A stretch of 64,000 bases of DNA from Mobula hypostoma. Lineage: Eukaryota. Shown here one piece after another: positions 5,216 through 44,185 of this stretch (position 1 is its first letter; every line of letters starts with the position of its first letter). Made by a program: the position numbers and the translations under genes. The notes under the pieces were generated by a model. It was given only the letters and a program-made list of their open reading frames with translations. It did no database searches and was not told the origin of the DNA. The stretch lies in assembly GCF_963921235.1 (NCBI RefSeq), contig NC_086097.1, positions 4,340,001 through 4,404,000 of the forward strand, read 5' to 3'.

Positions 5216-5512
5216 AAGTTGCTGGTGGACGCAGCAGGCCAGGCAGCATCTCTAGGAAGAGGTTCGGTCGACGTTTCGGGCCGAGACCCTTCGCCAGGAC
5301 TAAATGAAGGAAGAGTGAGTAAGAGCTAGTAAGAGCTAGGAAGAGCTACTAATCTCTTACTAACTTTTCCTTCAGTTAGTCCTGACGAAGGGTCTCGGCC
5401 TGAAACGTCGACTGTACCTCTTCCTAGAGATGCTGCCTGGCCTGCTGCGTTCACCAGCAACTTTGATGTGTGTTGCTTGAATTTCCAGCATCTGCAGAAT
5501 TCCTCCTGTTTG
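5216..5512 (+). mobile_element. Short non-autonomous Penelope-derived fold-back insertion with two inverted hammerhead-containing arms
   Basis: Left arm (from 5216) is the reverse complement of the right arm (to about 5463). 13-bp TSD AGGTGTTAAATTG at 5203-5215 and 5513-5525. Confidence 0.85.
5378..5413 (+). ncRNA. Minimal type I hammerhead ribozyme motif
   Basis: AGTC-CTGACGA-AGG GTCTCGG CCT-GAAA-CG-TC^GACT: helix I AGTC/GACT, intact core boxes, palindromic loopless helix III (ACGT). Confidence 0.8.
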
Positions 5513-5559
5513 AGGTGTTAAATTGGTGGGTTGCTGGGCAGTGAAGCTTGTTTCACATA

Positions 5560-5777
5560 GTATCTCTAAATAAATAAAGTAACACACACAAAATGTTTCC
5601 AGCGGTATCGCTAAATAAATAAAAATAACACACACAAAATGTTTCCAGCGGTATTTCTAAATAAATAAAGTAACACACACAAAATGTTTCCAGCGACATC
5701 TCTAAATAAATAAAGTAACACACACAAAATGTTTCCAGCGGTATCGCTAAATAAATAAAAATAACACACACAAAATG
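5560..5777. repeat. Minisatellite, five copies of a 45-46 bp unit
   Basis: CTAAATAAATAAA starts at 5566, 5611, 5657, 5702 and 5747. Two variants occur in the order A,B,A,A,B. Confidence 0.92.
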
Positions 5778-5985
5778 CTGGAGGAACTCAGCAGGTCAGG
5801 CAGCATCTATCAAAATGAATAAACAGGCGTCATTTCAGGCGGAGCCGTTCACCAGTCCTGATGAAGAGTCTTGGCCTGAAACGTCATCTGTACTCTTTTC
5901 TGTAGATGCTGCCTGGCCTGCTGAATTCCTCCAGCATTTTGTGTGTATTACTTTGTTTTCCGGCATCTGCAGATTTCCTCTTCAG
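5765..5985 (+). mobile_element. Older Penelope-derived fold-back unit with hammerhead motif at about 5854-5889
   Basis: CACACAAAATGCTGGAGGAACTCAGCAGG is inverted against CCTGCTGAATTCCTCCAGCATTTTGTGTG; contains AGTCCTGATGAAGAGTCTTGGCCTGAAACGTC. Confidence 0.75.
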
Positions 5986-6169
5986 AAATAAATAAATTGC
6001 AAATTGGTGAGTCCATTTCACTGAACTTTGTGGCATCCTGGAGCTAAAACCTACAAACCTGAAAATTTCATGTTTATTCCCATTCTACCGGTTACAAACT
6101 TCATCCAGTTTCCTTTCTATGCTAAACCTCCCAATATCACAAGTGCTGTGCTAATTGGCTTTTATATGT

Positions 6170-6690
6170 GTCATGTTGGTAAGGTCTAATTTGGAGTATT
6201 GCGTGCTTAAATTTTGTTTACCTATCTTCAGGAAAGATGTAAGTAAGGTTGAAAGAGAAAATTTACAAGGTTGTTGCCAGGTCTGGAAGACCTGAGCTAT
6301 AAGGAAAGATTGAATAGGTTACAACTTCACTCCTTAGAATGTAGAAGATTGAGAGGAGATTAGAGGTGTACAAAATTATGAGGGGGTAAGTGCAAACTGG
6401 CTTTTTCCACTTGAGATTACAAGCACAGGTCATGGGTTAAGCGTGAAAGGTGAAATGTTTAAGGGGACCATGAGGGGAAACCTCTCCACTCAGAGGGTGG
6501 TGTGAGTGTGGAACAAGATAACAGCACAAGAGGTCGATGAGAACTCGATTTCAACGTTTGAGAGAAGTTTCGATAGGTACATGGATGATAGGGGTATGGA
6601 GGGCTGTGATCCAGGTGCAGGTTAATGGGAGTAGGTGGTTTAAATGATTCAGTATGGACTACACGGGCCAAAGAGCCATCTTACTATGAT
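6170..6690 (+). mobile_element. CR1 LINE 3' fragment, decayed
   Basis: Remnants of the LVRxxLEYC and RGDL..VYKIM motifs, similar to other CR1 copies in the window. Confidence 0.8.
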
Positions 6691-6729
6691 GTTATTGAGT
6701 GCTTTTCCACACTCCAGTTACAATATGTT

Positions 6730-9915: not shown

Positions 9916-10686
9916 AACACGAGGAAATCTGCAGATGCTGGAAATTCAAGCAAGACACATAAAAAATGCTGGTGAACGCAGCAGGCCAGGCAGCATCCCT
10001 AGGAAGTGGTACAGTCGACGTTTTGTGCCGAAACTCTTCGTCAGGACTAACTGAAAGAAGAGATAGAAAGATATTTGAAAGTTATTATTCATTATTTCCT
10101 GCGGAGCATGAAGAAAGCTCACCTCTGTCCCAGGGTAGTGACGGACTTTTACCGCTGTACCATTGAGAGCGTACTCACCAACTGCATCTCAGTGTGGTAT
10201 GGCAATTGTCCCATGTCAGACCGTAAAGCACTCCAGCGTGTGGCGAAAACTGCCCAGCGGATTATTGGCACCCAATTGCCCACCATTAAGAACATCTACC
10301 ATAAACGCTGCCTGGGCAGGGCGAAAAGCATTATCAAGGATGCCTCTCACCCTAACCATGGACTTTTTACTCTCCTCCCATCTGGTAGGCGCTACAGGAG
10401 CCTCCGCTCCCGCACCAGCAGGCACAGGAAGAGCTTCTTCCCTGAGGCTGTGACACTGCTGAACCTCACATCACAGCGCTAAGCAGTATTGCATCCATAT
10501 TGTAATGTCTCAGTGCTTTTATATTTGTGTGCTGTAGCACTTTTTTTATTCGCAGGTATTTTGTAATTAGCACTATTCTTTGCATTTCTGGTCAGATGCT
10601 AAATGCATTTCATTGGCTTTGTATCTGTACTCGGCACAATGACAATAAAGTTGAATCTAATCTAATCTAAATTTTTTATGTGCGTT
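9916..10686 (-). mobile_element. Penelope-derived hammerhead unit whose second arm is largely replaced by a nested LINE fragment
   Basis: Tail plus degenerate hammerhead (minus strand, 10013-10048); residual inverted arm ATTTTTTATGTG at about 10671; 14-bp TSD GCCAACTAAACTAA at 9902-9915 and 10687-10700. Confidence 0.75.
10082..10670 (+). mobile_element. Rex1/Babar-type LINE 3' fragment, (TCTAA)n tail
   Basis: ORF 10075-10482 (FYRCTIESVLTNCISVWYG, LLPSGRRYRS, SFFPEAV). Confidence 0.87.
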
Positions 10687-12830: not shown

Positions 12831-13289
12831 TTGTCTGGTCCCTTATATTAAAATATTTCCTTATTTTGAAATGGGGTGGTTAGGGTGACATTTTGTGCAA
12901 AGCTCAGACAGAATCAAAATGAATCTATGGTGGAAATAATGGAATAGATTAGTCAAGTTTAAAAAGCTTGAACAATATTTCTGTTAGCTAAAATAATGAG
13001 ATGTTAAAGTGACCCATTTAGATAAATAGATTAGTATTTCCAAAGAAAACAATTGAGCTATTAATCTGGTTAAGTGCTCTGTGTGTGTGGAATATAAAAT
13101 CAAAACTCCGAATAGAATGGCATGAAAGGGATATGGTCATACATATGAGTTCAGAGGATGATGTTGATCTTACAATAGAAAACCACTTTACTGACTTAAA
13201 GTCAATGGAAATGTATATAAGTAAATCCACATTATACTCAATAGTCTCATAGTATACGATTACATCCTTAAATGCATGAAAATTAAATA

Positions 13290-13423
13290 CAACGAGAGAA
13301 CATCTGCAAATGCTGGAAATCCGAGCAGCACATACAAAATGCTGGAGGAACAAAACAGACCAGGCAGCATCTATGGAAAAAATACAGCTGACATTTCAGG
13401 TTGAATCCCTTCGGCAGGACTGA
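13290..13423 (-). mobile_element. Decayed Penelope-derived terminus with a degenerate hammerhead
   Basis: TCTGCAAATGCTGGAAAT...CAAAATGCTGGAGGAAC...CATTTCAGGTTGAATCCCTTCGGCAGGACT. Confidence 0.65.
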
Positions 13424-13599
13424 AAATTAGATAAATGTTTTGCTCATCCCAATACAGAAAAATGTGGTTAAACTGAAAATACTGTAGAAAAGTTCTATTG
13501 TCATGTTGTCAAGTGTAGACCGCCTGAGATGTTGTCCAGGCTAAGTCTTTCTTCTTTGGAACATAGGGTAATGGGGAGGGGAGATTTATAGAAATCTAA

Positions 13600-14375
13600 T
13601 CTGGATCCAGAGCACCTCTTCATTAGTCAAGAAGGCAAACCAATGTCTGCGCTTTCTGAGGAGACTGAGATGTGCGAAGTTCCCTGTCAGCATTCCAGCA
13701 TCTTTCAACAGGAGCACTTTGAAAGGGTGTCCTATCTGGCTGCATCATTGAGCGGTACAAAAGCTGCAAGGCTTTGGACTGCAAGGTCCTACTGGGATAG
13801 TAAAAACTGCCGAGAGGATCGCTGTGGTCTCCTCCCCACTATCTGTGACTTTTATCAGGAGCGTTGAATACAAAGGGCCTGTAGCTTTGCTGAGGATCCC
13901 TACCACCCAAGCCACAATCTCTTTGAGTCACTACCATCAGGAAGGGAGGAGATCCAGGAGCATCAGGACCAGACTGAGTAACAGCTTCTTTCCTCAGGCT
14001 GTGAGACTAATGAATACCATCTGAGATCTCAACACCAGGACAGTGAGCTCTTTGCTGTTTACCTGTGCTGTGCACTACATACATATTGCATTATATTTTA
14101 TATTTTATTAACTTACTTGTGGTGGTATTTTGTTTTACATTCTGTATGTGATATATGTTCTGTGGGTGCACCATGGTCCAGAGGAACATGTCCTGACGAA
14201 GGGTCTTGGCCTGAAACGTCAACTGTACCTCTTTCTAGAGATGCTGCCTGGCCTGCTGCGTTCACCAGCAACTTTGATGTGTGTTGCTTGAATTTCCAGC
14301 ATCTGCAGAATTCCTGTTGTTTCCAGAGGAACATTGTTTGCTTTGGTTGTATATATGTACAGTCAGATGACAACA
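13600..14375 (+). mobile_element. Decayed Rex1/Babar-like LINE 3' part, interrupted at 14190-14321
   Basis: RSIRTRLSNSFFPQAVRLMN remnant and the shared 3' UTR. Confidence 0.7.
14190..14321 (+). mobile_element. 132-bp single-arm Penelope-derived insertion beginning at the hammerhead 5' edge
   Basis: GTCCTGACGAAGGGTCTTGGCCTGAAACGTC...CTGCAGAATTCCTGTTGTT; 13-bp TSD TCCAGAGGAACAT at 14177-14189 and 14322-14334. Confidence 0.85.
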
Positions 14376-14690: not shown

Positions 14691-15029
14691 AAACATGATA
14701 AAATAGGCTGTAGTCACGACGGTTTCTTCAAGGGAAAGTCTTGCCTGAGAAATCAGTTGGCATTCTTTGAAGAAATAACAAGCAGGATAGACAAAGGAGA
14801 ATCGATTGATGTTGTGAACTTGGATTTTCTGAAGGCCTTTGACAAGGTGCCACACCAGGCTGCTTAACAAGCTATGAGCCCATGGTATTACAGGAAAGAT
14901 TATGGTGTAATGCCCCGATTCATATTTTTACTGTTATGGGGTAGGTATTTCATTTAGCAGTTCTGTAAGAACTGTCTGTTCTGCTGTCAGCCTGTTTGAG
15001 TTATTGTTGAAGATAAGGGATGGTGAGGT

Positions 15030-16813
15030 AAACACAAAATACTCTGCAGATGCTGGGGTCAAAGCAAAACTCACAACACGCTGGAGGAACTCAGCAGGTC
15101 GGGCAGCATCCGTGGAAAAGATCGGTCGACGTTTCGGGCCGGAACTCTTCGTCAGGACTGAAGAGGGAAGGGGCAGAGGCCCTATAAAGAAGGTGGGGGG
15201 AGAGTGGGAAGGAGAAGGCTGGTAGGTTCCAGGTGAAAAACCAGTAAGGGGAAAGATAAAGGGGTGGGGAAGGAAGGCAGGGAGCTGGTAGGCAGGAAAG
15301 GTGAAGAAGGAATAGGGGAAAATACAATGGGTAGTAGAAGGAGGCGGAACCATGAGGGAGGTGATAGGCAGCTGGGGGAGGGGGCAGAGTGAAATAGGGA
15401 TAGGGGAAGAGAGGGGGAGGGAATTACCCGAAGTTGGAGAATTCTATGTTCATACCAAGGGGCTGGAGACTACCTAGATGGTATATAAGGTGTTGCTCCT
15501 CCAACCTGAGTTTAGCTTCATCATGGCAGTAGAGGAGGCCATGTATGGACATATCTGAATTGGAATGGGAAGCAGAATTGAAGTGGGTGGCAACTGGGAG
15601 ATCCTGTCTGTTTTGGCGGACGGAGCGGAGGTGCCGACGAAGTGGCCCCCCAATCTGTGTCGGGTTTCACCGATGTAGAGGAGGCCACACCGGGAGCACT
15701 GGATGCAATAGATGACCCCAGCAGACTCACAAGTGAAGTGTTGCCTCACCTGGAAGGACTGTTTGGGGCCCTGAATGGTGGCAAGAGAGAAGGTGTAGGG
15801 ACAGGTGTAGCAGTTAAGCTTACAGGGATAATTGCCGGGTGGGAGATCCGTGGGGAGGGACGTGTGGATCAGGGAGTTGCGGAGGGAACGATCCCTGCAG
15901 AAAGCAGAGAGGGGTAGAGAGGGAAAGATGTGCTTAGTGGTGGGGTCTTGTTGAAGGTGGTGGAAGTTGCGGAGGATAATGGGGGACTGCTTCATCGAGC
16001 ACCTCCGCTCCGTCTGCCACAACAGACAGGATCTCCGCATTGCCACCCATTTCAACTTTGCTTCACATTCCCACTCTGATATGTCCATACATGGCCTCCT
16101 CTACCGCCATGATGAGGCTAAACTCAGGTTGGAAGAGCAAAACCTCATATACCGTCTAGGTAGTCTCCAGCCCCTTGGTATGAACATAGAATTCTCCAAC
16201 TTCTGGTAATTTCCTCCCCCTCTCTTCCCGTATCCCAGTTTCACTCTGCCCCCTCCCCCGGCTGCCTACTACCTCCCTCATGGTTCTGCCTCCTTCTACT
16301 ACCCATTGTGTTTTCCCCTATTCCTTCTTCACCTTACCTGCCTATCACCTTACATCAAAGTTGCTGGTGAACGCAGCAGGCCAAGCAGCATCTATAGGAA
16401 GAGGTGCAGTCGACGTTTCAGGCCGAGACCCTTCGTCAGGACTAACTGAAGGAAGAGTCCTGACGAAGGGTCTCGGCCTGAAACGTTGACTGCACCTCTT
16501 CCTGTAGATGCTGCTTGGCCTGCTGCGTTCACCAGCAACTTTGATGTATGTTGCTTGAATTTCCAGCATCTGCAGAATTCCTGTTGTCTGCCTATCACCT
16601 CCCTGCCTCCCCTCCCCCACCCCTTTATCTTTCCCCTTACTGGTTTTTCACCTGGAACCTACCAGCCTTCTCCTTCCCACCCTCCCCCCACCTTCTTTAT
16701 AGGGCCTCTGCCCCTTCCCTCTTCAGTCCTGACGAAGGGTTCCGGCCCGAAACGTTGACTGATCGTTTCCACGGATGCTGCCTGACCTGCTGAGTTCCTC
16801 CAGCGTGTTGTGA
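15030..16813. mobile_element. Neptune-type Penelope-like retroelement: inverted pair of 5'-truncated copies with GIY-YIG endonuclease remnant and terminal hammerheads
   Basis: Minus ORF 15474-16088 has a CKLNCYTC linker and FTCESAGVIYCIQCSRCGLLYIGET. The plus arm (about 15981-16813) is the reverse complement of 15071-15640. Hammerheads at 15124-15159 (-) and 16725-16760 (+). Confidence 0.88.
16351..16587 (+). mobile_element. Fold-back hammerhead unit nested in the Penelope element
   Basis: 93-bp inverted arms 16351-16443 and 16456-16548 with a 12-nt spacer; 13-bp TSD CTGCCTATCACCT at 16338-16350 and 16588-16600. Confidence 0.88.
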
Positions 16814-17180
16814 CTGATGATGAGAAATGTGTGCCATCCAATTAGGATGCTGGAACGTGGGGGAGGTTTCTTTGGTGAGGGACACTACGGTTGGGCTTAC
16901 GGTTTTTTGTTCGGTGGGAGATGAAGAGAGAAGCGGCTGGGGAGACCCTGTCGTAGGATACGAATGGGTGGGAGACTGTTTGTTCGAGATGGATTGTGAG
17001 TGACGTTTGAAAGGTGTTGTGTGCTTTCTCACTGATGAGGGCTCAGCTCGTGAGTGACAGAGAAGTTCACAATGAGCTCCAGCTTGTGTGCATTGGACTG
17101 TTTAAATAGAATGGGCCCTTTTCTTTTTGTTATTCCTTACTAACCCTTTAGTTGTTAAGATTCATAAACATAATTCCTTT

Positions 17181-21380: not shown

Positions 21381-22559
21381 TGTGGGTGCACTCTATACTT
21401 TGATTTATGAAGGCCAATGTGACTAAAGCTGTTAATAACCTTATGTTTCTCGCAACAGTCTGTGATCTCTTTACAAATTTGTTCCCCTAAGTCCCTAGGA
21501 CTTTCTTTCATCATTTGCACGATTTCTCTTTTGCACATTGGAGGTTTGTCAGACTTTGTTTTGTGGGTTTTTTTTCTTGGAATTTGTTATTTTTTTTTGT
21601 TTTATGGTTGCCTACAAGAAGATAACTCTCAAGGTTGTTCATGGTATACATGTTTTGATATATATTTACCTTAAACTTTGAAATCTTGAGCAAAACACAC
21701 AAAATTCTGGAGGAACTCAGCAGGCCAGGCTGTGCTCTCTCTACAGGTGCTGTCTGACCTGCTGAATTCACCCCGTGTTTTTGTGGAATAGGCTTGCAAC
21801 TGTAGGTTATTTTAACTTCACGCACATTGACTGAGCCTGCATTAGATGGAGCAAAATTTGTCATGTGTGTACAAGAATGTATTCTAAAATAGTATGTAGA
21901 GGACTCTACTGGAGAATATGTTACTCTCATCCTCCATTACTTCAAGGAAAAAAAGCCAAGTCACTAAATCAATTCTCAAAGGGTACAAGAAGCAAGTGGA
22001 GGAAGTCAGCACATTTTTTGTGACACAATTCCCAGAAAGACATCAGTGTAATGGCTACTCAAACAAGCCAATACCACTTTGGAGACTGAGTGGAGGGGTG
22101 TTGATTCTGTGTAACTTGCTTTCAATTCATTAGCAAGGCTGCAAAGTTGAAGAATACGTTCAATATCTTATTAAGAAACCAGTAAAACAACCTCGAAGTG
22201 ATAAAACTAATAAAACTAAAACTAGTGATATAACAACTAAACAGCCTTGGCCTGTTAAATATACTTAAGCCAAGAATTCTTAAATGTATTCAAGAATATT
22301 TAAATATATTTAAGTCTATTAAAGCAACTTTAAGCATGTTTCATCTTCCTTCAATATAGTTACGCAAACTTAAGCAGTCAACAAAAAGATATCAGCCCTT
22401 AGCTCACTCCAAAAATAAGACTATCCCCCAAAGACAATGCATGAATTTGTACATCTCAGTCTCAAAGAGTCACCAGATTGTGTAGAGAAAGAAAACGTTT
22501 AAAAGAAGTGAGCAAGGGCAGTCAACACATTTTGCGGACTACAGTCCTAAGGAGACATT

Positions 22560-30485: not shown

Positions 30486-33448
30486 CAAGTCTCTCTGTGA
30501 CCAGTGGTGTGCCTCAAGGATCTGTTCTTGGACCCCTTCTCTTTGTGATTTTTATAAATGACTTGGATGAGGAAGTGGAGGGATGGGTTAGTAAATTTGC
30601 GGATGACACACAAGATAGGGGTGTTGTGGATGGTGTGGAGGGCTGTCAGAGGTTACAGCGGGACATCGATAGGATGCAAAACTGGGCTGAGAAAGTGGCA
30701 GATGGAGCTCAACCCAGATAAGTGTGAGGTGGTTCATTTTGGTAGGTCAAATATGATGACAGAATTAATGGTAAGACTCTTGGCAGTGTAGAGGATCAGA
30801 GGGATCTTGAGGTCCATGTCCATCGGGCACTCAAAGCTGCTGCTTAGGTTGACTCTGTGGTTAAGAAGGCATATGGTGTATTGGCCTTCATCAACTGTGT
30901 GATTATGTTTAAAAGCCGAGAGGTAATATTGCAGCTATATCGGACCCTGGTCAGACCCCACTTGGAGTACTGTGCTCAGTTCTGGTCGCCTCACTACAGG
31001 AAGGATGTGGAAACTTCAGAAAGTGTGCAGAGGAGATTGACAAGGATGTTACCTGGATTAGGGAGCATGCCTTATGAGCAAACAACAGGAATTCTGAAGA
31101 TGCTGGAAATTCAAGCAACACACATCAAAGTTGCTGGTGAACGCAGCAGGCCAGGCAGCATCTGTAGGAAGAGGTGCAGTCGACGTCGACTGCACCTCTT
31201 CCTACAGATGCTGCCTGGCCTGCTGCGTTCACCAGCAACTTTGATGTGTGATGCCTTATGAGAATAGGTTGAGTGAATGCGGCCTTTTCTCCTTGGAGTG
31301 GCAGAGGAAGAGAGTTTACCTGATAGAGGTGTATAAGATGATGAGAGACATTGATTGTGTGGATAGTCAGAGGCTTTTTCCCTGGGCTGAAATGTTTAAA
31401 AAAAGGCTCTAAACATAAACCGGGAAATTATAGACCACTGAGTCTGACATCCATTGTGGGAAACTTATTGGAAAGTATTCTAATGAACTGGATATACAAG
31501 TATTTGGATAGACATAGACTGATTAAGCATCATCAGCATGACTTCACACGTGATAGGTCATGTCTAACCAATCTTATAGAGATTTTTGAGGAAGTTTTTT
31601 CAGGAAAGTAGATGAATGCAAGGCAATGGATGTTGTCTACATGGGCTTTGGCAAGGCATTTGACAGGGTCCCACGTGGGAGGTTGGTCAAGAAGGTTCTG
31701 TCACTTGGCATTCAGGATGAGGTAGTAAATTAGATTAAACATTGTCTCTGTGGGAAAAGTCAGAGAGTGGTATCAGTTGCCTCTCGGATTGAAGGCTTGT
31801 GATTAGTAATGGGCTGTGGGGATTGGTGTTGAGTTCTTTGTTACTTATTATCTATATCAATAATTTGGATGATAATGTTGTTAAATCGATCAGAAAATGT
31901 GTGGATGACACCAGGATTGGGTGTGTACTGGACAGTGAGGAAGTTTATCATAGTTTGGAGAGGGATCTGCATCAGCTGGAAAAATGGGCTGAAAAATGGC
32001 AGATGGAACTTAATACAGACAAATGCGAGGTTTTGTACTTCAGTAGGACCAACCAGGGTCGATGGTACACAGTGAACGGTAGGGGACTGAGGAGTGTGGT
32101 AGAACAAACAAATCTGGGAATACAGGTCCATAAATTGTTGAAAGTGGCATCACATGTAGATAGGTTCATAAAGAAAGCTTTTCATGCATTGGCCTTCATA
32201 AATCAAAGTAAATGATTTGGGATGGTATGTTGAAGTTCTATAAGATGTTGGTGAGGACTAATTTGGAGTATTGTGTGCAGTTTTGGTCACTTATCTGCAG
32301 GAAATATGTAAAGATGGTTGAAAGAGTACAGAGGAAATTTACAAAGATGTTGCTAGGTCTGGAGGGCCTGAGTAATGTGGAAAGATTGAATCTGTATACC
32401 TTAAAACTTAAAACTTAGAAGATTGAGAGGAGATTTGATAGAGGTATTCAAAATTATGTGCAATATAGACAGGGTAAATGCAAGCAAGCTTTTTCCACTG
32501 AGGTTGGGTAGGACTCTAACCAGAAGTGATGGGTTAAGGGTGAAAGGTGAAAGGTTTAAGTGGGAAAATTTCTTTGCTCAGAGGGTCGTAAGAGTGTGGA
32601 ATGAGCTTCCAACACAAATGGTGCATGTGAGCTCGACTTCAACATTTAAGAGAAGTTTGGATAGGTACATGGATGGATGGATGGGGTATGGAAGGCTATG
32701 ATCGTGGTGCAGGTCGATGGAAGTAGGCAGTGTAAATGGTTCAGTACAGACCACGTGGACTGAATGGCCTGTTTCTGTTCTGTACTTCTCTATGACTCTT
32801 GAGTCTATGATTCTATAAGAAATGCAAGAGAACATTTCAGAAGGAGATCAGGAGGGCTAAAGGAAGGCATGAAATTGCCCTAGCCAGAGAAGGTGAGGGA
32901 GAATCCTAAGGGCTTCTACAGATATACTAAGAGCAAAAGGATTGCAAGGGGCAAAATTGGTCCTCTGGATAATCAGCATGGTAATCCATGCATGGAGTCA
33001 AAAGAGATAGGGGAGATCTTAAATGGAGTTTACTTGGGAGATGGACAAACAGTCCATAGTACTGAGGCAAAGCAGCGGCAAGGTCTTGGGCCCCATACAG
33101 ATTATAGAGGAGGAGGAGTTTGCTGTATTGAGGCTAATTTAGTGTGGATAGAGTCCCAGGGCCTGACAATGTGTACCCTCAGACGCTACAGGAGGCAAGT
33201 GTAGAAAATGAAGGGGCCCAGAACCTCTCACAATACTCCAACATTATGATGCCAATGCCTGATAAAGCTTCAGCATTACAGCCTTGCTTTTATAGTTACA
33301 GCTATATAGGATCCTGGTCAGACCCCACTTAGAGTACTGTGCTCAGTTCAGGTCACCTTAGAACAGGAAGGATGTAGAAACTATAGAAAGGGTGCAGAGA
33401 AGATTTACACGGCTGTGCCTGGATTGGGGAGCATACCTTACGAGAATA
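30486..33448 (+). mobile_element. Stack of decayed CR1 ORF2 fragments
   Basis: [26 protein letters not shown] and NYRPLSLTS motifs in ORFs 30482, 30857, 31351, 31799, 32212, 32423 and 32893. Confidence 0.82.
31079..31250 (-). mobile_element. Penelope-derived insertion forming a perfect 132-bp palindrome plus a 40-nt tail
   Basis: Arms 31119-31184 and 31185-31250 with no spacer; 12-bp TSD ATGCCTTATGAG at 31067-31078 and 31251-31262. Confidence 0.9.
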
Positions 33449-36400
33449 GAAACCATAGAAACTAATTAGAAACCATAGAAAAACTATAGCACAGAAACAG
33501 GCCTTTTGGCCCTTCTTGTCTGTGCCGAACCATTTTCTGCCTAGTCCCACTGACCTGCACATGGACCATATCCTTCCATACTCCTCTCATCCATGTATCT
33601 GTCCAATTTATTCTTAAATCTTAAAAAAGAACCTGCATTTATCGCCTCGTCTGGCAGCTCATTGCATACTCCCACCACTCTCTGTGTGAAGAAGCCCCCC
33701 CAATGTTCCCTTTAAACATTTTCCCTCCTCACCCTGAACCCATGTCCTCTGGTTTTTTTCTCCCCTTGCCTCAGTGGAAAAAGCCTGCTTGCATTCACTC
33801 TATCTATACCCATCATAATTTTATATACCTCTATCAAATCTCCCCTCGTTCTTCTACGTTCCAGGGAATAAAGTCCTAACCTATTCAACCTTTCTCTGTA
33901 ACTGAGTTTCTCAAGTTCTGGCAACATCCTTGTAAACCTTTTCTGCACTCTTTCAACCTTATTAATATCCTTCCTGTAACTTGGTGACCAAAACTGAACA
34001 CAATACTCCAGATTCGGCCTCACCAATGCCTTATACAACCTCATCATAACATTCCAGCTCTTATATTCAGTACTTTGATTAATAAAGGCCAATGTACCAA
34101 AAGCTCTCTTTATGACCCTATCTACCTGTGACGCCACTTTTAGGGAATTTTGTGTCTGTATTCCCAGATCCCTCTGTTCTACTGCACTCCTCAGTTCCTT
34201 ACCATTTACCCTGTATGTTCTACGTTGGTTTGTCCTTCCAAAGTGCAATACCTCACACTTGTCTGTATTAAACTCCATCTGCCATTTTTCAGCCCATTTT
34301 TCCAGCTGGTCCAAGTCCGTCTGCAGACTCTGAAAATCTTCCTCACTTTCTACTACACCTCCAATCTTTGTATCATCAGCAAATTTGCTGATCTAATTTA
34401 CCACATTATCATCCAGATCATTGATATAGATGACAAATAACAATGGACCCAGCACTGATCCCTGTGGCACACCACTAGACACAGGCCTCCACTCTGAGAA
34501 GCAATTCTCTATTACCACTCTTTGACTTCTTCCATTGAGCCAATATCTAATCCAATTTAACACCTCTCCATGTATACCTAGCGACTGAATTTTCCTAATT
34601 AACCTCCCATGCGGGACCTTGTCAAAGGCCTTACTGACGTCCATGTAGACAACATCCACTGCCTTCCCTTCATCCACTTTCCTGGTAACCTCCTTGAAAA
34701 ACTCCAGTAGATTGGTCAAACATGACCTACCACGCACAAAACCATGTTGACTCTCCCTAATAAGTCCCTGCCTATCCAAATGCTTGTAGATTCTGTCTGT
34801 TAGTACTCCCTCCAATAACTTACCTACTACCGACATTAAACTTACTGGCCTATAATTTCCCGGATTACTTTTCGATCCTTTTTTAAACAACGGAATCATC
34901 CGGCACCTCACCTGTAGACAGCGACATTTTAAATATTTCTGCCAGGGCCCCTGCAATTTCAACACTAGTCTCCTTCAAGGTCTGAGGGAACACCCTGTCA
35001 GGTCCTGGGGATTTATCCACTTTAATTTTCCTCAAGACAGCAAGGACCTCCTCCTTTTCGATCTGTACAGTTTCCATGATCTCACTACTTGTTTCCTTTA
35101 ATTCCATAGACTTCATGCCAGTTTCCTTAGTAAATACAGACGCAAAAAACCTATTTAAGATCTCCCCCATTTCCTTTGGTTCCGCACATAGCTGACCACT
35201 CTGATCTTCAAGAGGACCAATTTCATCCCTTACAATCCTTTTGCTCTTAATATACCTGTAAAAGCTCTTTGGATTATCCTTCACTTTGACTGCCAAGGCA
35301 ACCTCATGTCTTTTAGACCTCCCGATTTCTTTCTTAAGTATTTTCTTGCTCTTCTTATACTCCTCAAGCACCTGATTTACTCCCTGTTTCCTATACATTT
35401 CACACAACTCCCTCTTCTTCTTTATCAGAGTTGCAATATCCCTTGAGAACCAAGGTTCCGTATTCCTATTCACTTTGCCTTTAATCCTGACAGGAACATA
35501 CAAGCTCTGCACTCTCAAATTTCTCCTTTGAAGGCTTCCCACTTACCGATCACATCCTTGCCAGAGAACAACCTGTCCCAATCCACACTTTTTAGACCTT
35601 TTCTAATTTCTTCAAATTTGGCCTTCTTCCAGTTCAGAACCTCAACCCTAGGACCAGATCTATCCTTGTCCATGATCAAGTTGAAACTAATGGTGTTATG
35701 ATCACTGGAACCAAAGTGCTCCCCTACACAGAGTTCTGTCACTTGTCCTAACTCGTTTCCTAACAGGAGATCCAATATTGCATCCCCTCTAGTTGGTCCC
35801 TCTATATATTGATTTAGAAAACTTTCCTGAACACATTTTACAAACCCTAACCCATCTAAACCCCTAACAGTATGGGAGACCCAATCAATGTATGGAAAAT
35901 TAAAATCCCCTACCACCACAACTTTATGTTTCCTGCAGTTGCCTGCTATCTCTGTGCAGATTTGCGCTTCCAGTTCTAGCTGACTATTGGGTGGTCTGTA
36001 ATACAATCCCGCTAATGTGGCCATACCTTTCCTGTTTCTCAGCTCCACCCATAAGGACTCAGTAGACAAGCCCTCTAATCTGTCCTGCCTGAGTACTGCT
36101 GTAACATTTTCCCTGACAAGCAATGCTAACCCCCCACCTTTCATTCCTCTGCCTCTGTCACATCTGGAACATTGGAACCCTGGAATATTAAGCTGCCAGT
36201 CCTGCCCCTCCTGTAGCCAAGTTTCACTAATTGCTATAACGTCATAATTCCACGTGTCAATCCACGCCCCCAACTCATCTGCTTTCCCCGCAATACTCCT
36301 AGCATTGAAATATATACACCTCAGAAGATTTTTACCACCACTCACAACCTTTCTATTAGTGGATTTGCTTGAACTTTTAACATCATTTATTTTCACCCCA

Positions 36401-37487
36401 GCCACACTGTCAGCTCTGGTACTCTGGTTCCCATCCCCCTGCAAATCTAGTTTAAAGCCTCCCCAATACCACTAACAAATTTCCCTGAAAGGATATTGGT
36501 CCCCTTGTAGCTCAAGTGTAACCCGTCTCTCTTGTACAGGTCCCACCTGCCCCAGAAGAGGTCCCAATGATCCTGAAATCTGAAACTCTGCCCCCTACAC
36601 CAGTTCCTCAGCCACTTGTTCCTCCTCCAGAGCATCCTATTCCTACCCTCACTGGCACGTGGCACAGGTAGCAATCCTGAGATTACCACTCTCGAGGTCC
36701 TGCTTTTCAACTTCCTACCAAGCTCTCTATACTCACTCTCCAGGACCTCCTCACTCTTCCTTGCTATGTCATTGGTAACGATGTGCACCACGACATCTGG
36801 CTGATCACCCTCCCACTTCAGAGTGTCATGCAATCGATCAGAGACATCCTTGACCCTGGCACCCAGGAGGCAACAAATCATCCTGGATTCTCTGTCACAA
36901 CCACAGAACCTCCTATCTGCACCTCTAACTATCGAGTCCCCTGTCACTACCGCTCTCCTCTTTTCCCCCCTCCCTTCTGCACTGCAGAGCCAGACTCAGT
37001 GCCAGAGATCCGGCTACTGCAGCTTGTCCCAGGTAAGCCATCCCCCCCAACAGTATCCAATGCGGTATACTTGTTGTTGAGGGGAATGGCCACAGGGGAA
37101 CCCTGCTCTGCCTGCCCTTTCCTCTTCCCTCGCCTGACAGTGACCCAATTTCCTGTCCTCTGCTCCTTTGGCGTAACTACCCCCCTGTAGCTACGATCTA
37201 TAATCTCCTCATTCTCCCGAATGATCCGCAGGTCATCCAGCTCCTGCTCCAGTTCCCTAACGCGGTTTGTCAGGAGCTGCAGCAGGATGCACTTCTTGCA
37301 GGTGTCGTTGTCAGGGACACCGGACTCCCTGACTTCCCACATCCTGCAAGAGGAGCATTCCAACATCCTGCCTGGCATTCTCTCTACGCTAGACAATCTG
37401 GACAAAAAAAAACTTACCGGAACCTACTCTGGCCTCTGCCTGTTCTCGCTGAAGCCTGTTGAGCCAAAGCCGTCCCACTCTGACTCA
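33449..37487 (-). mobile_element. Near full-length CR1 LINE (about 4 kb): ORF1 (zinc finger, coiled coil, SGNH esterase) and ORF2 (APE plus RT), frameshifted
   Basis: ORF1 37405-36447 (CSSC..CKKC, GDSIVRG, DGLHL); ORF2 36444 to about 33540 in four frames ([29 protein letters not shown]); 3' microsatellite tail; inserted in an older CR1 that resumes at 37490. Confidence 0.93.
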
Positions 37488-40799: not shown

Positions 40800-42160
40800 T
40801 CTGCCAGAGTTTCCCAGTGATTTCCTCCAACAGATATTCTGCTACTCCAGATTCACCACATCTTCCATTTTCAACAAAAATGCAATAACCTTTCTCCTTT
40901 CATTAACCACTGCATGACTCATCTGCAAGAGTGAGACCATTTTAATTCCAATCCCCATTCTCACTCTGATAGGTCGATCCATGTCCTCTTCTTTCACCTT
41001 GATGAGGCCACTCTCAGAATGGAGGAGCAATACCTCATGTTCCTCTGGGTCTGGGTGAGAATCAGTTGCTTCCCCCGGGCAGTTAGACTTCTGAATTCCT
41101 TGTCACATCATATTCTGAGTCACTGGTTAATCTGTTCCGTACCTTACAATATTTAATATTCATGCACTTCAATTTGTTATTTATGTGTGATTCATCTGTA
41201 GATTTTATCCTTAAATTCATGTTACCCTGTTATATGTACTAACCTGTAAGAAATGTCTCATTGCTATATATATGAGGGGTGATTGATAAGTTCGTGGCCT
41301 AAGGTAGAAGGAGTCAATTTTAGAAAACCTAGCACATTTATTTTTCCTACATTTGCACTCCTAGTCCAGCAGTCGTGGACCATACGGATCCCTTCTTTTT
41401 GAAGTCGGGGTCTTGGACCTCCAGAAAGTGGTCCACAGCAGGGGTGATTGATAACTTCGTGGCCTAAGGTAGAAGCAGATGAGGAGAAACTTCAAACTTC
41501 CTGCATTTTCACTGAAAGTGTTGAACTGCATGTGCAGATAATGAGAGCTGTATAGCTCATCTCCTTCTACATTGGACCATGAACTTATCAATCACCCCTG
41601 CTGTGGACCACTTCTACAAAGAAGGAATCCGTATGCTCGACAACCACTGGACTAAGTGTGTAAATGTAGGAGGGGACTATGTTGAAAAATAAATGTGCTA
41701 GCTTCTCTAAAATTGACTCCTTCTCCTTCAGGCCACCAACATATGAATCACCCTGGTATTACATGGTTATATATGTTATATATAAGTATATAATTAAATG
41801 ACAATAGACTTGACTTGACTGGTTTGTGTAGCCCTCAACCTGATGGCATGAACATCGTTTTTTCCGGTTAAAAAAAAATCCTTCCTCCTCTCTTCTTTTC
41901 CCATCTCTGGCCCCTTATTTCTTCTCACCTGCCTTCATCTCTTCCTGGTGACCCTCCTTCTCTTTCTCCCATGGTCCATTCTCCTCTCCTGTCAGATTCC
42001 TTTTTACCTTTCCCAGCCACTTGACTTCGCCTGGGCCTGAGATATACATTTGTTTATTCATTTCATAGACACTACCTGACCTGTTAAGTTTCTCCAGCAT
42101 TTTGTGTGTTTTGTGCATGTTGCTCAAGGTTCTGAATATCTGTAGAATCTCTTATGTTTA
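40800..42160 (+). mobile_element. Old Penelope-like 3' remnant, interrupted by a LINE tail and a mariner MITE
   Basis: 40938-41050 and 41830-41870 are similar to 16048-16200; degenerate terminus at 42065-42160. Confidence 0.6.
41273..41756. mobile_element. Mariner-derived palindromic MITE
   Basis: TA flanks; TIR TGAGGGGTGATTGATAAGTTCGTGGCCTAAGG; transposase C-terminus FYKEGIRMLDNHWTKCVNVGGDYVEK* at about 41612-41692. Confidence 0.85.
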
Positions 42161-42328: not shown

Positions 42329-42334
42329 TTTAAT
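42329..42334 (-). promoter_or_regulatory. Candidate polyadenylation signal (ATTAAA) of the serpin gene
   Basis: About 280 nt after the stop codon; followed about 35 nt downstream by GU/U-rich GTTTGTTATTGGTTTT. Confidence 0.55.
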
Positions 42335-42610
42335 ATAAATCATGTCATTCAATCAAATATGTATTAAGCAAATCATAACAACCAGGAAGTCTATATTTGA
42401 AATATTTTGTTAATGTGGATATTGTTGAAGGGTTTACTTTGACTTGAAATCTCTTCAATCAATGCCTGATGTGTTAACCTATTATAAAGCAAACCTAAAT
42501 TATGTTAGCCAGCTCCCAATATTTAAATGTTACAAGTTTAAGTGTTAGAAGTAACTGCATTGTTTTCCATCCGGAGATGCACAAGTTTTGTGATGGTGTG
42601 GACTCTGTGA

Positions 42611-42799
42611 TCAAATGCTGGGGTTCATCACTCTCCCAGCAAACACGACACTCCTGATATAGTTATCAGCAATTAGTAACAAGAAAGGTCTGTTACATTT
42701 AAACTCAACAGGAAGAGACAGTGGGATTGCTTGCATGCCTGTAACTGCAGTAGCCTTTGTTCCTTCCTCATCTACTTCCAGCACAGCCTTATGCATCAC
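42611..42799 (-). CDS. Terminal coding exon of a clade A serpin (alpha-1-antitrypsin-like), containing the reactive-centre loop
   Basis: Acceptor TTTTTTTCCCTCTGTAG|GTG in phase 0; VMHKAVLEVDEEGTKATAVTGMQAIPLSLPVEFKCNRPFLLLIADNYIRSVVFAGRVMNPSI*; hinge and serpin signature intact; intron position matches the last intron of SERPINA-type genes. Orthology is uncertain, so no symbol is given. Confidence 0.93.
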   Translation of the reverse strand: MMHKAVLEVDEEGTKATAVTGMQAIPLSLPVEFKCNRPFLLLIADNYIRSVVFAGRVMNPSI

Positions 42800-42995
42800 C
42801 TACAGAGGGAAAAAAAGGCATCAAACTTGATTTATAACAAAAACATCCAATTTATAAGTTTCATAGATTTTCCAAATACTTTATTACTATATATGATTAA
42901 TATCTTACAACTTACAAAAACTGTGTTGTTGTGTTTTAGGCCTATAAACATGCACTGAATTATTCAAACTGCCTATTTAATTATTTCGAGATAAT

Positions 42996-43019
42996 TAACC
43001 CTAACCCTATCCCTAACCC
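42996..43019. repeat. Short telomere-like tract (TAACCC)4 with one mismatch
   Basis: TAACCC TAACCC TATCCC TAACCC. Confidence 0.6.
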
Positions 43020-43261
43020 ACAGATTTAACACCAGCCTAAGTACATTTCCACCCACCCACCATCCAGGACATGCTCTCTTCTTGCTGCTGCCATGAGGAA
43101 GAAGGTAGAGGAGCCTCAGGACCCCCACTACCAGGTTCACAAAGAGTTATTCCACCTCAACCATCAAGCTCTTGATAACTTCACATCCTAAGTTTCAAAT
43201 ATTCCCGCAACCTATGGACTTACTTTCATTTATTGCTTATTTATGTATATTTATTTATTTA

Positions 43262-43848
43262 TTTGCTGTTCTCTTGGAAAGTTTTCTTGGTCTTCCAGAC
43301 CTCAACTTGACCTCACCATTCCTGTTAACTGCCATTTCTTAATTACATTACAAACTGAGGAAATAGCTACCTGTAAATGTTTTGCTATCTTCTTATAGCC
43401 TTCTCCTGCTTTGTGGGCATTATTTATTTTAATTTTCAGAGTGCTAGGCAGCTGCTTAGAGGAGCCCATGGCTGCTGATTGTTGGGACAAGGTTTGAGGA
43501 GTCAGGGTATTTATAAAGCTTTGAAATTTGCATCACCTGGCCTTTCCGAACGATGACTGTGAACAAGCCATAGCCCTAACAAGCTAATTAAGGTCTGAGA
43601 CCTTGGTAAAAGTTATCTGAGAGCTCAAATCTCTTGTGGTGCCCAAACTTTTGCATGGTGCTCCTTTCCTTTTTTTTCACTCTAAAATTGTACAAAACAA
43701 AAATAATACACTAATCTTGCTTAAATGTTGAAAAGAATGTTTCATCTGTAACTTCATGATGTTTGGAGATCAGTTCATCTCTTACCCACTTAACTATTCA
43801 CAGTAACAGAAATTTTGACCGGGGTGCCCAAACTTTTGCATGCCACTG
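43262..43848 (-). mobile_element. Left end of an IR/DR-type Tc1 transposon with a frameshifted transposase N-terminus
   Basis: TA|CAGTGGCATGCAAAAGTTTGGGCACCCC terminus; 20-bp direct repeat at 43823-43842 and 43638-43657; MGSSKQL..HKAGEGYKKIAK from ATG 43469, then SGRPRKLS in a shifted frame. Confidence 0.9.
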
Positions 43849-43899
43849 TATGCATAATGATTATTATTTTCTCTTTTGTACCTGCACAGTTTATTTTTT

Positions 43900-44185
43900 G
43901 ATGTTGCCACGTTTGCCGAGCCTGCCAATTAGCTTGCAGATGTTTCCTCACCAGTCGAGGCTCTTAAGAAATGTGAGGCAATAGAATTCAAAGGTCAACT
44001 GAAGGGCTCGCCAATCAGGATCAAAGCAAGTGAACAGGGGTCTCCATGAACACAAGCACCCCCAGAGAGAAACACCAACAACCGCGCACTGAGGATGTCA
44101 CCGCGACTGGAGATGAAACATCTGCAAGCTCGGCAAACACCAGAACATCAGATACTGAACCCGAGCGACCAGGATTCACCACCAT
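43900..44185 (+). mobile_element. Terminus of a second Penelope family with hammerhead (44086-44125) and a short inverted arm (about 43910-43960)
   Basis: GCA-CTGAGGA-TGTCACC GCGACT GGAGAT-GAAA-CA-TC^TGC; AGCTTGCAGATGTTTC at 43931 is its reverse complement. Confidence 0.7.

What the first reader, a model, noticed from the sequence alone, without database searches (positions are those of the whole stretch)
5216..44185. About a dozen minimal hammerhead ribozyme motifs carried by short Penelope-derived mobile units
Seen: the motif AGTC-CTGAYGA-A-GRG..(6 nt)..CCY-GAAA-CG-TY^GACY occurs at 5378(+), 5266(-), 5854(+), 10013(-), 13387(-), 14190(+), 15124(-), 16408(-), 16456(+) and 16725(+), some copies with core substitutions. 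A distinct version occurs at 44086(+). Established: CUGANGA and GAAA..NUH are the hammerhead catalytic core, and Penelope-like elements carry minimal type I hammerheads in their terminal repeats whose palindromic helix III is thought to need dimerisation. Inference: 130-300 bp non-coding units, little more than ribozyme plus 3' tail, were inserted repeatedly by a Neptune-type RT/GIY-YIG like the remnant at 15474-15966. They are either a ribozyme-bearing SINE/retrozyme-like family or extreme 5' truncations.
Basis: partly seen in the sequence, partly recalled or inferred. Interest (0 to 1): 0.85.

Follow-up and report, generated by a model that had tools for sequence, protein, structure and literature searches.

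The report
Hammerhead-bearing Penelope retroelement tail fragments
These are short, dead end-fragments of a Penelope-like jumping gene in what is probably a ray genome, each carrying the tiny self-cutting-RNA motif such elements are already known to carry, so the catch is real but of a known kind.

Summary
All 10 listed motifs are at the stated places. A 27-nt family pattern gives 8 hits against 0 expected. Seven copies keep the full hammerhead core and three are core-mutated. The "distinct version" at 44086 is at chance level.

[quoted passage not shown] I resolve nine insertion events. Four have perfect 12-13 bp target-site duplications. Six are inverted head-to-head pairs. In all five resolvable pairs, only one arm carries the last 33-49 nt. 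That is the published PLE "tail" and two-start-site signature.

5' ends range from about -820 to +55, which favours 5' truncation over a separate SINE or retrozyme family. Contigs of two organisms hold the unit in more than 47,000 and 108,000 pieces.

Unexplained: 4 of 8 tail-bearing arms start exactly at ribozyme nt 1-2.

Verdict: a new member of a known kind, of modest interest.

The parts
5216..5512 (.). Event a (subfamily A). Inverted head-to-head pair. The short (-) arm is about 5216-5339, with its motif at 5265-5301 (core A6 to G). The full (+) arm is about 5340-5512, with its motif at 5378-5414 (consensus-perfect). Both arms reach about 38 nt upstream of the ribozyme. TSD AGGTGTTAAATTG at 5203-5215 and 5513-5525.
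5760..5985 (.). Event f (subfamily C). Inverted pair. The short (-) arm is 5760-5853 and starts inside the ribozyme at about nt 8. The full (+) arm is 5854-5985 and starts at ribozyme nt 1 (motif 5854-5890, helix I lost). TSD-like AAATAAATAAA at 5749-5759 and 5986-5996.
9916..10075 (-). Solo copy of old subfamily A. Motif at 10012-10048 with G12 mutated. About 17-25 nt of leader; 5' boundary and TSD not resolved.
13290..13420 (-). Solo copy (subfamily C), starting at ribozyme nt 2. Motif at 13385-13421 with A6 to C. 13-bp TSD with 1 mismatch at 13277-13289 and 13421-13433.
14190..14321 (+). Event b. Solo subfamily A copy of 132 bp, starting at ribozyme nt 2. Core intact; first helix I pair lost by a CpG transition. 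Perfect 13-bp TSD TCCAGAGGAACAT at 14177-14189 and 14322-14334.
15028..16815 (.). Event e (subfamily B, autonomous type). Head-to-head pair of PLE 3' ends. The (-) arm is 15028 to about 15985 and carries the tail; its motif is at 15123-15159. The (+) arm is about 15980-16815, lacks the tail, has its motif at 16725-16761, and is interrupted by event c. Degenerate TSD GATGGTGAG / GATGATGAG.
15433..15998 (-). Remnant of the PLE ORF C-terminus, about 190 aa with one frameshift near 15640. It holds the C-x3-C-x2-C linker, then the GIY-YIG endonuclease, then the stop. About 270 nt of pyrimidine-rich UTR follow before the ribozyme.
15964..16200 (+). The last 74-79 aa of the same PLE ORF on the inverted arm.
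16351..16587 (.). Event c (subfamily A), nested in the UTR of event e. The short (-) arm is 16351-16455, with its motif at 16407-16443 (consensus-perfect) and 12 nt of leader. The full (+) arm is 16456-16587 and starts at ribozyme nt 1 (position 17 = U). Perfect 13-bp TSD CTGCCTATCACCT.
21685..21788 (.). Event g. Old inverted pair of tail pieces without a ribozyme. The arms start at about nt +36 and +55. No TSD found.
31079..31250 (.). Event d (subfamily A). Perfect palindrome. Both arms start at nt 30 (GTC^GAC), 3 nt 5' of the scissile bond, so most of the ribozyme is missing. The full (-) arm is 31079-31184 and the short (+) arm is 31185-31250. Perfect 12-bp TSD ATGCCTTATGAG.
40935..41042 (+). 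Old isolated fragment of a PLE endonuclease coding region (55-69% identity to the ray proteins). No ribozyme follows it.
42063..42155 (+). Weak tail-like match (nhmmer E 1.6e-6), with no ribozyme part.

Best explanation
The motifs are sequence-level minimal type I hammerheads, with helix III reduced to the palindrome ACGU. They belong to the 3'-terminal module of Neptune-type Penelope-like elements (PLEs) in an elasmobranch genome, probably a ray.

The 3' module reads: ORF stop, about 270 nt of pyrimidine-rich UTR, a 37-nt ribozyme, then a 95-100 nt tail. The tail holds a conserved long-range stem, AGATGCTG...CAGCATCT.

The copies in the window are dead products of PLE target-primed reverse transcription, and this part is shown by the sequence:
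- The endonuclease cuts the two target strands 12-13 bp apart, giving the target-site duplications (TSDs).
- cDNA synthesis starts at one of two sites in the tail, with 3' ends at unit nt 132-135 or nt 86-99.
- cDNA synthesis mostly stops early, at variable points.
- In six of nine events both target ends primed, so two cDNAs were joined head to head. This gives an inverted pair in which only one arm has the terminal 33-49 nt.

The ribozyme is present in the short copies simply because it lies within about 135 nt of the start of reverse transcription.

Its function in master elements is inferred from the literature and not shown here. That function is protein-assisted, probably dimeric, self-cleavage of multimeric or read-through PLE transcripts.

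After insertion the copies decay neutrally, mainly at CpG sites.
For: Motif.
- 8 hits against 0 expected.
- The core, the NUH cleavage triplet and the palindromic ACGU are present in 7 of 7 family hits of the generic pattern. None of the 8 non-family hits is palindromic.

PLE context.
- tblastn with five ray proteins maps the last ~190 aa of a PLE ORF at 15998-15433(-) and 15964-16200(+), at 73-81% identity.
- The GIY-YIG domain is seen sub-threshold in the window copy (13.3 bits) and in 4 of 5 relatives (18.7-20.9 bits, cut-off 22.6). Atlas clusters carry GIY-YIG.
- The C-x3-C-x2-C linker is read from the translation.

Insertion anatomy.
- Perfect TSDs of 13, 13, 13 and 12 bp, one of 13 bp with 1 mismatch, one of 11 bp, and one degenerate.
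- 6 of 9 events are inverted pairs.
- In 5 of 5 resolvable pairs, one arm ends at nt 132-135 and the other at nt 86-99.
- This matches published descriptions: 'inverted 5'-truncated copy' and 'a 30-40 bp tail at one end only' (PMC8557442, passages); both strands cleaved and extended, with two adjacent internal RT start sites about 85-92 nt downstream of the HHR cut (PMC11167929, main text).

Truncation.
- 5' ends lie at about -820, -500, -38, -38, -12, +1, +1, +2, +2, +8, +30, +30, +36 and +55.

Other genomes' contigs.
- 108,201 and 47,446 contigs of two DNA runs lie on the unit.
- Loose ends pile at 5511/5512 and at 5475-5477, which fits two 3' end classes about 35 nt apart.
- Loose ends before 5351 share a consensus (agreement 0.61-0.66), so other copies continue further upstream.

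Decay.
- Four of the 5 common variants inside the ribozyme are CpG transitions (table 3).
Against: - Four of the 8 tail-bearing arms start exactly at ribozyme nt 1-2. The best-supported 5' loose ends in all 4 runs are before 5378/5379. Random truncation does not predict such a pile.
- No ORF-bearing copy of the commonest subfamily (A) is in the window. The only ORF-linked copy (B) differs from it by about 24%.
- The A-type leader does not align significantly with the B-type UTR.
- Contigs cannot give a length distribution up to full length.
- Ribozyme activity is untested. The nearest-neighbour model strongly prefers a rod-like alternative fold over the double-hammerhead dimer: -31.5 against -8.3 kcal/mol.
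- Across subfamilies the ribozyme (80% identity) is less conserved than the two tail-stem blocks (87% and 95%). Core columns are not significantly more invariant than the others: 9 of 12 against 49 of 109, p = 0.067.
Confidence: 0.72

Rival explanations
1. Subfamily A is a separate non-autonomous family: a ribozyme-headed SINE or solo-retrozyme. A discrete RNA of about 132-175 nt, made of ribozyme plus tail, would be made from its own master copies. It would be copied in trans by the Neptune-type reverse transcriptase, which recognises the conserved tail stem.
For: - Very high copy number and homogeneity: 22,270 of the 108,201 contigs laid in X1 are at least 99% alike.
- 5' ends cluster at ribozyme nt 1-2 in 4 of 8 tail-bearing arms, and in loose ends before 5378/5379.
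- There is no ORF-linked A copy in the window.
- A differs from the autonomous-type B by about 24%, yet shares the ribozyme and both tail-stem blocks.
- Non-autonomous PLE derivatives are documented (10.64898/2026.07.22.740005, Results read; PMC8557442, passage on Chlamys).
Against: - Other A-type arms start at -38, -38, -12 and +30.
- In other copies the leader runs on beyond -27 with a shared consensus.
- None of the nine resolved events is a head-to-tail tandem. Among the 15 listed joints, head-to-tail ones are few and have low depth.
- No promoter was sought or found.
- One 64-kb window cannot show that a partner is absent.
Confidence: 0.18
2. The conserved 37-mer is not a working ribozyme in this lineage. 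It would be a structured signal, a rod-like hairpin used for reverse-transcriptase binding, RNA stability or dimerisation, that merely retains the hammerhead core letters by descent.
For: - The predicted monomer and dimer minimum-energy folds are the rod-like hairpin, which pairs GACG of the core with CGUC at the cut site.
- The ribozyme is no better conserved than the tail-stem blocks.
- The consensus fold of 7 copies does not give the hammerhead, and no pair shows compensatory change.
- Published PLE mini-hammerheads cleave poorly in vitro (PMC4209133, whole text). In the anole element, HHR mutants did not affect insertion in vitro (PMC11167929, main text).
Against: - All constrained core positions, the bulged nucleotide after A9, G10.1, the NUH triplet and the palindromic helix III are kept across three subfamilies that differ by 40-60% in the neighbouring spacer.
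- The anole PLE hammerhead does cleave when its protein is present, and it shows C3/G8 compensatory rescue (PMC11167929).
- Energy models ignore the tertiary contacts of the core.
Confidence: 0.1

Closest known systems
Minimal hammerhead ribozymes in the pseudo-LTRs of Penelope-like elements (Cervera & de la Pena 2014, PMC4209133; dimer cleavage: Lunse, Weinberg & Breaker, seen only in the reference list of PMC6765202)
   Same: - Type I topology.
- Core CUGANGA and GAAA.
- An unpaired nucleotide between A9 and G10.1.
- No helix III loop, only a palindromic ACGU that needs a second copy.
- A short helix I of 4-5 bp.
- Thousands of solo copies per genome, attributed to truncated PLEs.
- Pairs of motifs 100-700 bp apart on opposite strands.
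   Different: - The host is a cartilaginous fish, probably a ray. I found no paper on this.
- In the commonest subfamily position 11.1 is U, giving a G.U pair instead of the usual G10.1-C11.1.
- Copy number looks very high.
- Activity is untested here.
PAc, the Poseidon-type PLE of Anolis carolinensis, studied in vitro (Frangieh et al. 2024, PMC11167929)
   Same: - Reverse transcription starts at two neighbouring internal sites about 85-92 nt downstream of the hammerhead cut. Here the two classes of 3' ends lie about 54-67 and 100-103 nt downstream of the cut, 33-49 nt apart.
- Both target strands are cut and extended, which fits the twin inverted arms.
- The tail is the stretch between the two start sites.
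   Different: - A different PLE clade: a Zn-finger linker of Neptune or Nematis type.
- Here the ribozyme follows the ORF stop by about 270 nt, whereas in PAc it overlaps the ORF start.
- The evidence here is insertion scars only, with no biochemistry.
Non-LTR retrozymes of animals (Cervera & de la Pena 2020, PMC7229834, abstract only; Li, Clavereau & Pollet 2026 preprint, Results read)
   Same: Short non-coding hammerhead-bearing units related to PLE terminal regions. Monomeric 'solo' derivatives are common, and such units are reported in one chondrichthyan species.
   Different: - Retrozymes are defined by head-to-tail tandem repeats and by circular RNAs cut at both ends by canonical type I hammerheads.
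- None of the nine events resolved here is a head-to-tail tandem; they are solo or inverted.
- The motif here is the minimal form.
- No circular junction is shown.
Twin priming of LINE-1, giving inversion/truncation insertions (recalled, not read here)
   Same: Two cDNAs primed from both ends of a staggered break, giving head-to-head inverted segments inside one TSD.
   Different: Here the two primings use two different start sites in the template, so one arm lacks the tail. The enzyme is a GIY-YIG PLE protein.

Membership tests
Minimal type I hammerhead of PLEs | Conserved core C3 U4 G5 A6 N7 G8 A9 ... G12 A13 A14 | tested here: met
   7 of 10 copies keep it exactly. Three decayed copies have one or more core changes.
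Minimal type I hammerhead of PLEs | Cleavage triplet N-U-H followed by the 3' strand of helix I, which pairs with the 5' end of the motif | tested here: met
   The triplet is GUC in 5 and GUU in 2 of the 7 core-intact copies. By contiguous count helix I is 4-6 bp in 4 of them, 3 bp in 15159-, and disrupted at the innermost pair in 5854+ and 14189+.
Minimal type I hammerhead of PLEs | Helix III reduced to a palindrome (15.1-16.1), so that two copies can build it | tested here: met
   ACGU is present in 7 of 7 family hits and in 0 of 8 non-family hits. The nested double-hammerhead pairing can be written for two copies, but it is energetically disfavoured in the model.
Minimal type I hammerhead of PLEs | An unpaired nucleotide after A9, and a G10.1-C11.1 pair | tested here: inconclusive
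   The extra A is present in all copies. Position 11.1 is C in subfamily B but U in A and C. At 5401, T>C makes up about a third of the contig depth (table 3).
Minimal type I hammerhead of PLEs | Self-cleavage | not testable with these tools
   No raw RNA reads were available, and contigs cannot show ends.
Rfam hammerhead families | A match to a curated hammerhead covariance model | tested here: not met
   No hammerhead hit at gathering score or at E<=10. From my own knowledge, not tested here: the Rfam models expect a helix III stem-loop, which these motifs lack.
Penelope-like element, EN+ with Zn-finger linker (Neptune/Nematis type) | C-terminal GIY-YIG endonuclease | tested here: inconclusive
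   Pfam GIY-YIG scores 13.3 bits (cut-off 22.6) in the window copy and 18.7-20.9 bits in 4 of 5 close relatives. Atlas neighbours carry GIY-YIG. VIY...YIGET is visible in the translation.
Penelope-like element, EN+ with Zn-finger linker (Neptune/Nematis type) | CX2-5CxxC motif just upstream of GIY-YIG (PMC8557442) | tested here: met
   C-K-L-N-C-Y-T-C is read in the ORF 15477-16100(-). It is conserved in a ray relative.
Penelope-like element, EN+ with Zn-finger linker (Neptune/Nematis type) | PLE/telomerase-like reverse transcriptase | tested here: inconclusive
   All PLE copies in the window are 5'-truncated before the RT. At least one set of the RVT_1 hits (33.7-37.0 kb, minus strand) lies in an element that also has an Exo_endo_phos nuclease and so belongs to a LINE; the other RVT_1 hits were not assigned to an element. 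No phylogeny was made.
Penelope-like element, EN+ with Zn-finger linker (Neptune/Nematis type) | Insertion structure: 5' truncation, an adjacent inverted copy, and a 30-40 bp tail at one end only | tested here: met
   6 of 9 events are inverted pairs. In 5 of 5 resolvable pairs one arm lacks the last 33-49 nt.
Non-LTR retrozyme | Head-to-tail tandem repeats, each with a hammerhead, giving circular RNAs | tested here: not met
   None of the nine events resolved in the window is a head-to-tail tandem; direct repeats in the region were not searched for with the repeat finder. Among the 15 listed joints, the 'goes back' ones are few and have low depth (table 5). Circular RNA is not testable.
SINE | A fixed 5' end with an internal promoter, and a 3' end shared with a partner element | tested here: inconclusive
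   The 3' module is shared with the PLE. 5' ends are variable but pile up at ribozyme nt 1-2. No promoter analysis was done.

The most novel reading that the evidence does not exclude
The pile of 5' ends at ribozyme nt 1-2 would mark the real 5' end of an RNA. The pile is 4 of 8 tail-bearing arms, plus the best-supported loose ends in four runs.

On this reading, a discrete RNA of about 132-135 nt, made of nothing but the mini-hammerhead and the reverse-transcriptase-binding tail, is itself the main template. That would make it a PLE-dependent, ribozyme-headed SINE. It would have become one of the commonest repeats of ray genomes.

Its 5' end would be set by transcription start or by processing at the edge of helix I, right after a 3'-splice-site-like leader.

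Event d, where both arms begin 3 nt from the scissile bond, would then be a genomic scar of reverse transcription of an RNA cut at or near the hammerhead site in vivo.
Probability: 0.15. Interest if true: 0.6.

Novelty: new member of a known kind. Interest (0 to 1): 0.25.

Why it matters
The finding adds no new kind of system. Mini-hammerheads in Penelope-like elements, their solo copies, and the inverted and tailed insertion structure are all in print.

Its value lies in the natural insertion scars. In a cartilaginous fish and in a different PLE clade, they show the two features so far demonstrated biochemically only for one lizard element. These are priming from both target strands and two reverse-transcription start sites about 35-40 nt apart. 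The TSDs here are a clean 12-13 bp.

The family is very abundant in at least two organisms. That makes it a practical system for asking what the hammerhead does for PLEs, and why many copies begin exactly at its first nucleotide.

Tried and rejected
- Whole genome: none is held, so no genome-wide census was possible.
- Metagenome scans with a ribozyme pattern and with a tail pattern found 0 loci each.
- Earlier findings of the scan: nothing for this genome or this sequence.
- Rfam: no hammerhead hit. The sub-threshold MIR1888 and mir-2 hits are only the hairpins formed by inverted pairs a and d.
- Expression: no RNA holder is listed. I laid two runs that are only guessed to be RNA (X16, X17). 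They hold family contigs (6,107 and 6,909 laid). Contigs cannot show transcription, strand, starts or ends. No pile of ends at 5409/5410 can be asserted or denied, and table 6 was empty. The one 'goes back 119' joint (5497 to 5379, one contig in X16) is not at the cut site, so I do not read it as a circle.
- Depth profile: it falls gradually upstream of 5378. I use it only as a weak hint, because contig depth cannot rank parts of a stretch.
- 44086 'distinct version': rejected as chance.
- Covariation: 0 of 20 predicted pairs show double changes in 7 copies. This is too little diversity to test the tail stem or the ribozyme helices.
- Homology of the A-type leader to the B-type 3' UTR: not significant.
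- 40-bp satellite as a hammerhead derivative: the consensus aligns end to end (score 11; 1 of 300 shuffles reach it). No monomer keeps the core, and nhmmer with the unit profile finds nothing there. I keep it only as a lead.
- The first fuzzy-regex scan timed out and was replaced by blastn.
- Lunse et al. on dimer cleavage is not held.
- Supplements of the papers were not opened. The species list and family consensus sequences in the supplements of the 2026 preprint could show whether this family is already catalogued.

Full report
**What is there**

A 27-nt degenerate family pattern with up to 3 mismatches gives 8 matches, where 100 dinucleotide-preserving shuffles give none. The two remaining copies are more decayed and were recovered by blastn and nhmmer.

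The motif reads:
- AGUC (helix I, 5' strand)
- CUGAYGA (core)
- one unpaired A
- GRG..6 nt..CCY (helix II)
- GAAA (core)
- CGUC
- GACU (helix I, 3' strand)

The four letters A15.1-C-G-U16.1 are a palindrome with no loop. This is the minimal PLE hammerhead of Cervera & de la Pena (PMC4209133, whole text read).

Seven of the ten copies keep the whole core. Two of those are consensus-perfect, two have U at position 17, and three have weakened helices. The other three copies are core-mutated (read).

Rfam finds no hammerhead at either threshold. From my own knowledge, its models expect a helix III stem-loop.

**The 44086 motif**

The generic core CTGANGA-N8-30-GAAA occurs 15 times against 6.4 +/- 2.7 expected. 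Seven of the 15 are the family, so the other eight are at chance level. The 44089 hit has a non-palindromic ACAU, only 3 bp of helix I, and no second copy in the window. I reject it.

**Context: a Penelope-like element**

- Stop-to-stop translation shows a GIY-YIG-type C-terminus on the minus strand at 15.4-16.0 kb, and its last ~80 aa again on the plus strand at 15.96-16.2 kb.
- A search of long proteins found five hits with E from 2e-56 to 2e-45. All are predicted proteins of two ray species. BLASTP against one gives 73% identity over 128 aa.
- tblastn places them at 15998-15433(-) with one frameshift, at 15964-16200(+), and on an old fragment at 40935-41042(+).
- Pfam GIY-YIG is sub-threshold in the window copy (13.3 bits) and in 4 of 5 relatives. 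Atlas neighbours carry GIY-YIG.
- The motif C-x3-C-x2-C lies just upstream of GIY-YIG. This is the linker that marks the Neptune and Nematis clades (PMC8557442, passages).
- No PLE reverse transcriptase is in the window. At least the RVT_1 hits at 33.7-37.0 kb belong to a LINE with an AP-type nuclease; the other RVT_1 hits were not assigned.
- The 3' module of the ORF-linked copy is: stop, about 270 nt of pyrimidine-rich UTR, the 37-nt ribozyme, then a tail of about 95 nt.

**Anatomy of the insertions**

Aligning all copies gives three subfamilies:
- A: 5378+, 5301-, 10048-, 14189+, 16443-, 16456+, and both arms at 31.1 kb.
- B, ORF-linked: 15159-, 16725+.
- C: 5854+, 5844-, 13421-, and both arms at 21.7 kb.

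A boundary search finds these target-site duplications:

| Event | TSD |
|---|---|
| a (5216-5512) | 13 bp, perfect |
| b (14190-14321) | 13 bp, perfect |
| c (16351-16587) | 13 bp, perfect |
| d (31079-31250) | 12 bp, perfect |
| solo 13290-13420 | 13 bp, 1 mismatch |
| f (5760-5985) | 11 bp |
| e (15028-16815) | degenerate, 9 bp with 1 mismatch |
| g, and the 10048 copy | none found |

Six of them are head-to-head inverted pairs made in one insertion (a, c, d, e, f, g). Three are solos.

In all five pairs whose ends can be read, one arm reaches unit nt 132-135. The other stops at nt 86, 91, 93, 95 or about 99. The short arm therefore lacks the last 33-49 nt.

**How this fits known PLE mechanics**

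Craig et al. describe an inverted 5'-truncated copy adjacent to PLE insertions, and a 30-40 bp tail present at one end only (PMC8557442, passages).

Frangieh et al. (PMC11167929, main text) show for an anole PLE that:
- the protein cleaves and extends both target strands;
- reverse transcription starts at two adjacent internal sites, 111-118 nt into the ORF, that is about 85-92 nt downstream of the hammerhead cut;
- the tail is the sequence between the two start sites.

The scars here match that picture in a different clade and host. The staggered cuts are 12-13 bp apart. There are two primings and two start sites, which here lie about 54-67 and about 100-103 nt downstream of the cut.

**Truncation or a separate family?**

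5' ends relative to ribozyme nt 1 are about -820 and -500 (e), -38 and -38 (a), -12 and +1 (c), +1 and about +8 (f), +2 (b), +2 (13421), +30 and +30 (d), and about +36 and +55 (g). The 10048 copy is unresolved.

This spread, the inverted pairs, and the absence of any head-to-tail tandem among the nine events argue for 5'-truncated PLE insertions rather than a retrozyme.

I laid Logan contigs of two DNA runs of two organisms on 5330-5540 at 88% likeness.
- 108,201 and 47,446 contigs lie on the unit, so the family is very abundant.
- Loose ends behind 5511/5512 have random AT-rich continuations.
- A second group lies behind 5475-5477, which fits the two 3' end classes.
- Loose ends before 5351 share a consensus (agreement 0.61-0.66), so other copies continue upstream of the point where event a turns into its inverted arm.
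- Four of the five variants above 10% inside the ribozyme are CpG transitions. The fifth (5401 T>C, about a third of depth) restores G10.1-C11.1.

**Results against my reading**

- Four of the eight tail-bearing arms begin exactly at ribozyme nt 1 or 2. The best-supported 5' loose ends in all four runs are before 5378/5379, and those at 5379 have random flanks. Simple truncation does not predict this, and the cleavage site is 30 nt away.
- No ORF-linked A copy is in the window. The A leader does not align significantly with the B UTR.
- Across subfamilies the ribozyme is 80% identical. It is better conserved than the spacer (47%), the middle (59%) and the end (38%), but less so than the two halves of the tail stem (87% and 95%). 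Core columns are not significantly more invariant: 9 of 12 against 49 of 109, p = 0.067.
- RNAalifold on 7 copies does not return the hammerhead and finds no compensatory pair.
- RNAcofold prefers a rod-like fold, which pairs core GACG with CGUC, at -31.5 kcal/mol. The double-hammerhead pairing scores -8.3 kcal/mol. This agrees with the weak, protein-assisted activity reported for such motifs (PMC4209133; PMC11167929), but it also leaves room for a non-catalytic role.

**Comparison and novelty**

The closest known things are:
- the PLE mini-hammerheads (PMC4209133);
- the PAc mechanism (PMC11167929);
- non-LTR retrozymes as non-autonomous PLE derivatives (PMC7229834, abstract; 10.64898/2026.07.22.740005, Results and passages).

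Searches for hammerhead or Penelope papers on sharks, elasmobranchs or cartilaginous fishes returned nothing specific. The one exception is that the 2026 preprint sampled one chondrichthyan species.

I file this as a new member of a known kind. Interest is modest, at 0.25. The open point that could raise it is the pile of 5' ends at the ribozyme's first nucleotides.

Noticed in passing
window 46089-64000: A 40-bp satellite with about 443 copies runs to the end of the window. Its consensus aligns end to end with ribozyme nt 1-40: score 11 against 5.6 +/- 1.6 in shuffles, and 1 of 300 shuffles reach it. No monomer keeps the hammerhead core. Low-depth 'goes back 35' joints, which are tandem ribozymes, occur in other genomic contigs. 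This is a weak lead for a hammerhead-derived satellite.
   Followed up: partly
window 1-2231: A 35-bp satellite with about 65 copies and 69% matches. It shows no likeness to the unit: best score 6.
   Followed up: partly
window 5560-5777: A 45-bp minisatellite of 4.8 copies. Its unit is the outer end of the short arm of event f plus the TSD-like AAATAAATAAA and a few flank bases. A tandem array therefore grew at a PLE insertion boundary.
   Followed up: partly
window 5340-5377, 16444-16455, 10049-10075: The leader just upstream of the ribozyme in subfamily A looks like a 3' splice site: TACTAAC, then a pyrimidine run, then CAG and UAG ending at ribozyme nt 2. [quoted passage not shown] No splicing evidence was sought.
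   Followed up: no
window 5282-5397 and 31116-31251: The inverted pairs give sub-threshold Rfam microRNA-precursor hits: MIR1888 at 44.8 bits and mir-2 at 33 bits. If transcribed they would form long perfect hairpins, which are possible small-RNA sources.
   Followed up: no
window 33715-36995 (-): A LINE with a GDSL-lipase-like first ORF, an Exo_endo_phos nuclease and RVT_1. Further RVT_1 and ALKBH8_N-like fragments are scattered over 3.8-40 kb, so the region is a dense nest of retroelements.
   Followed up: no
window 41370-41700: Two near-identical ~35-nt stretches beginning GGGGTGATTGATAA, and their reverse complement, lie within 330 bp downstream of the old PLE fragment (printed). This may be a small foldback or MITE-like element.
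   Followed up: no
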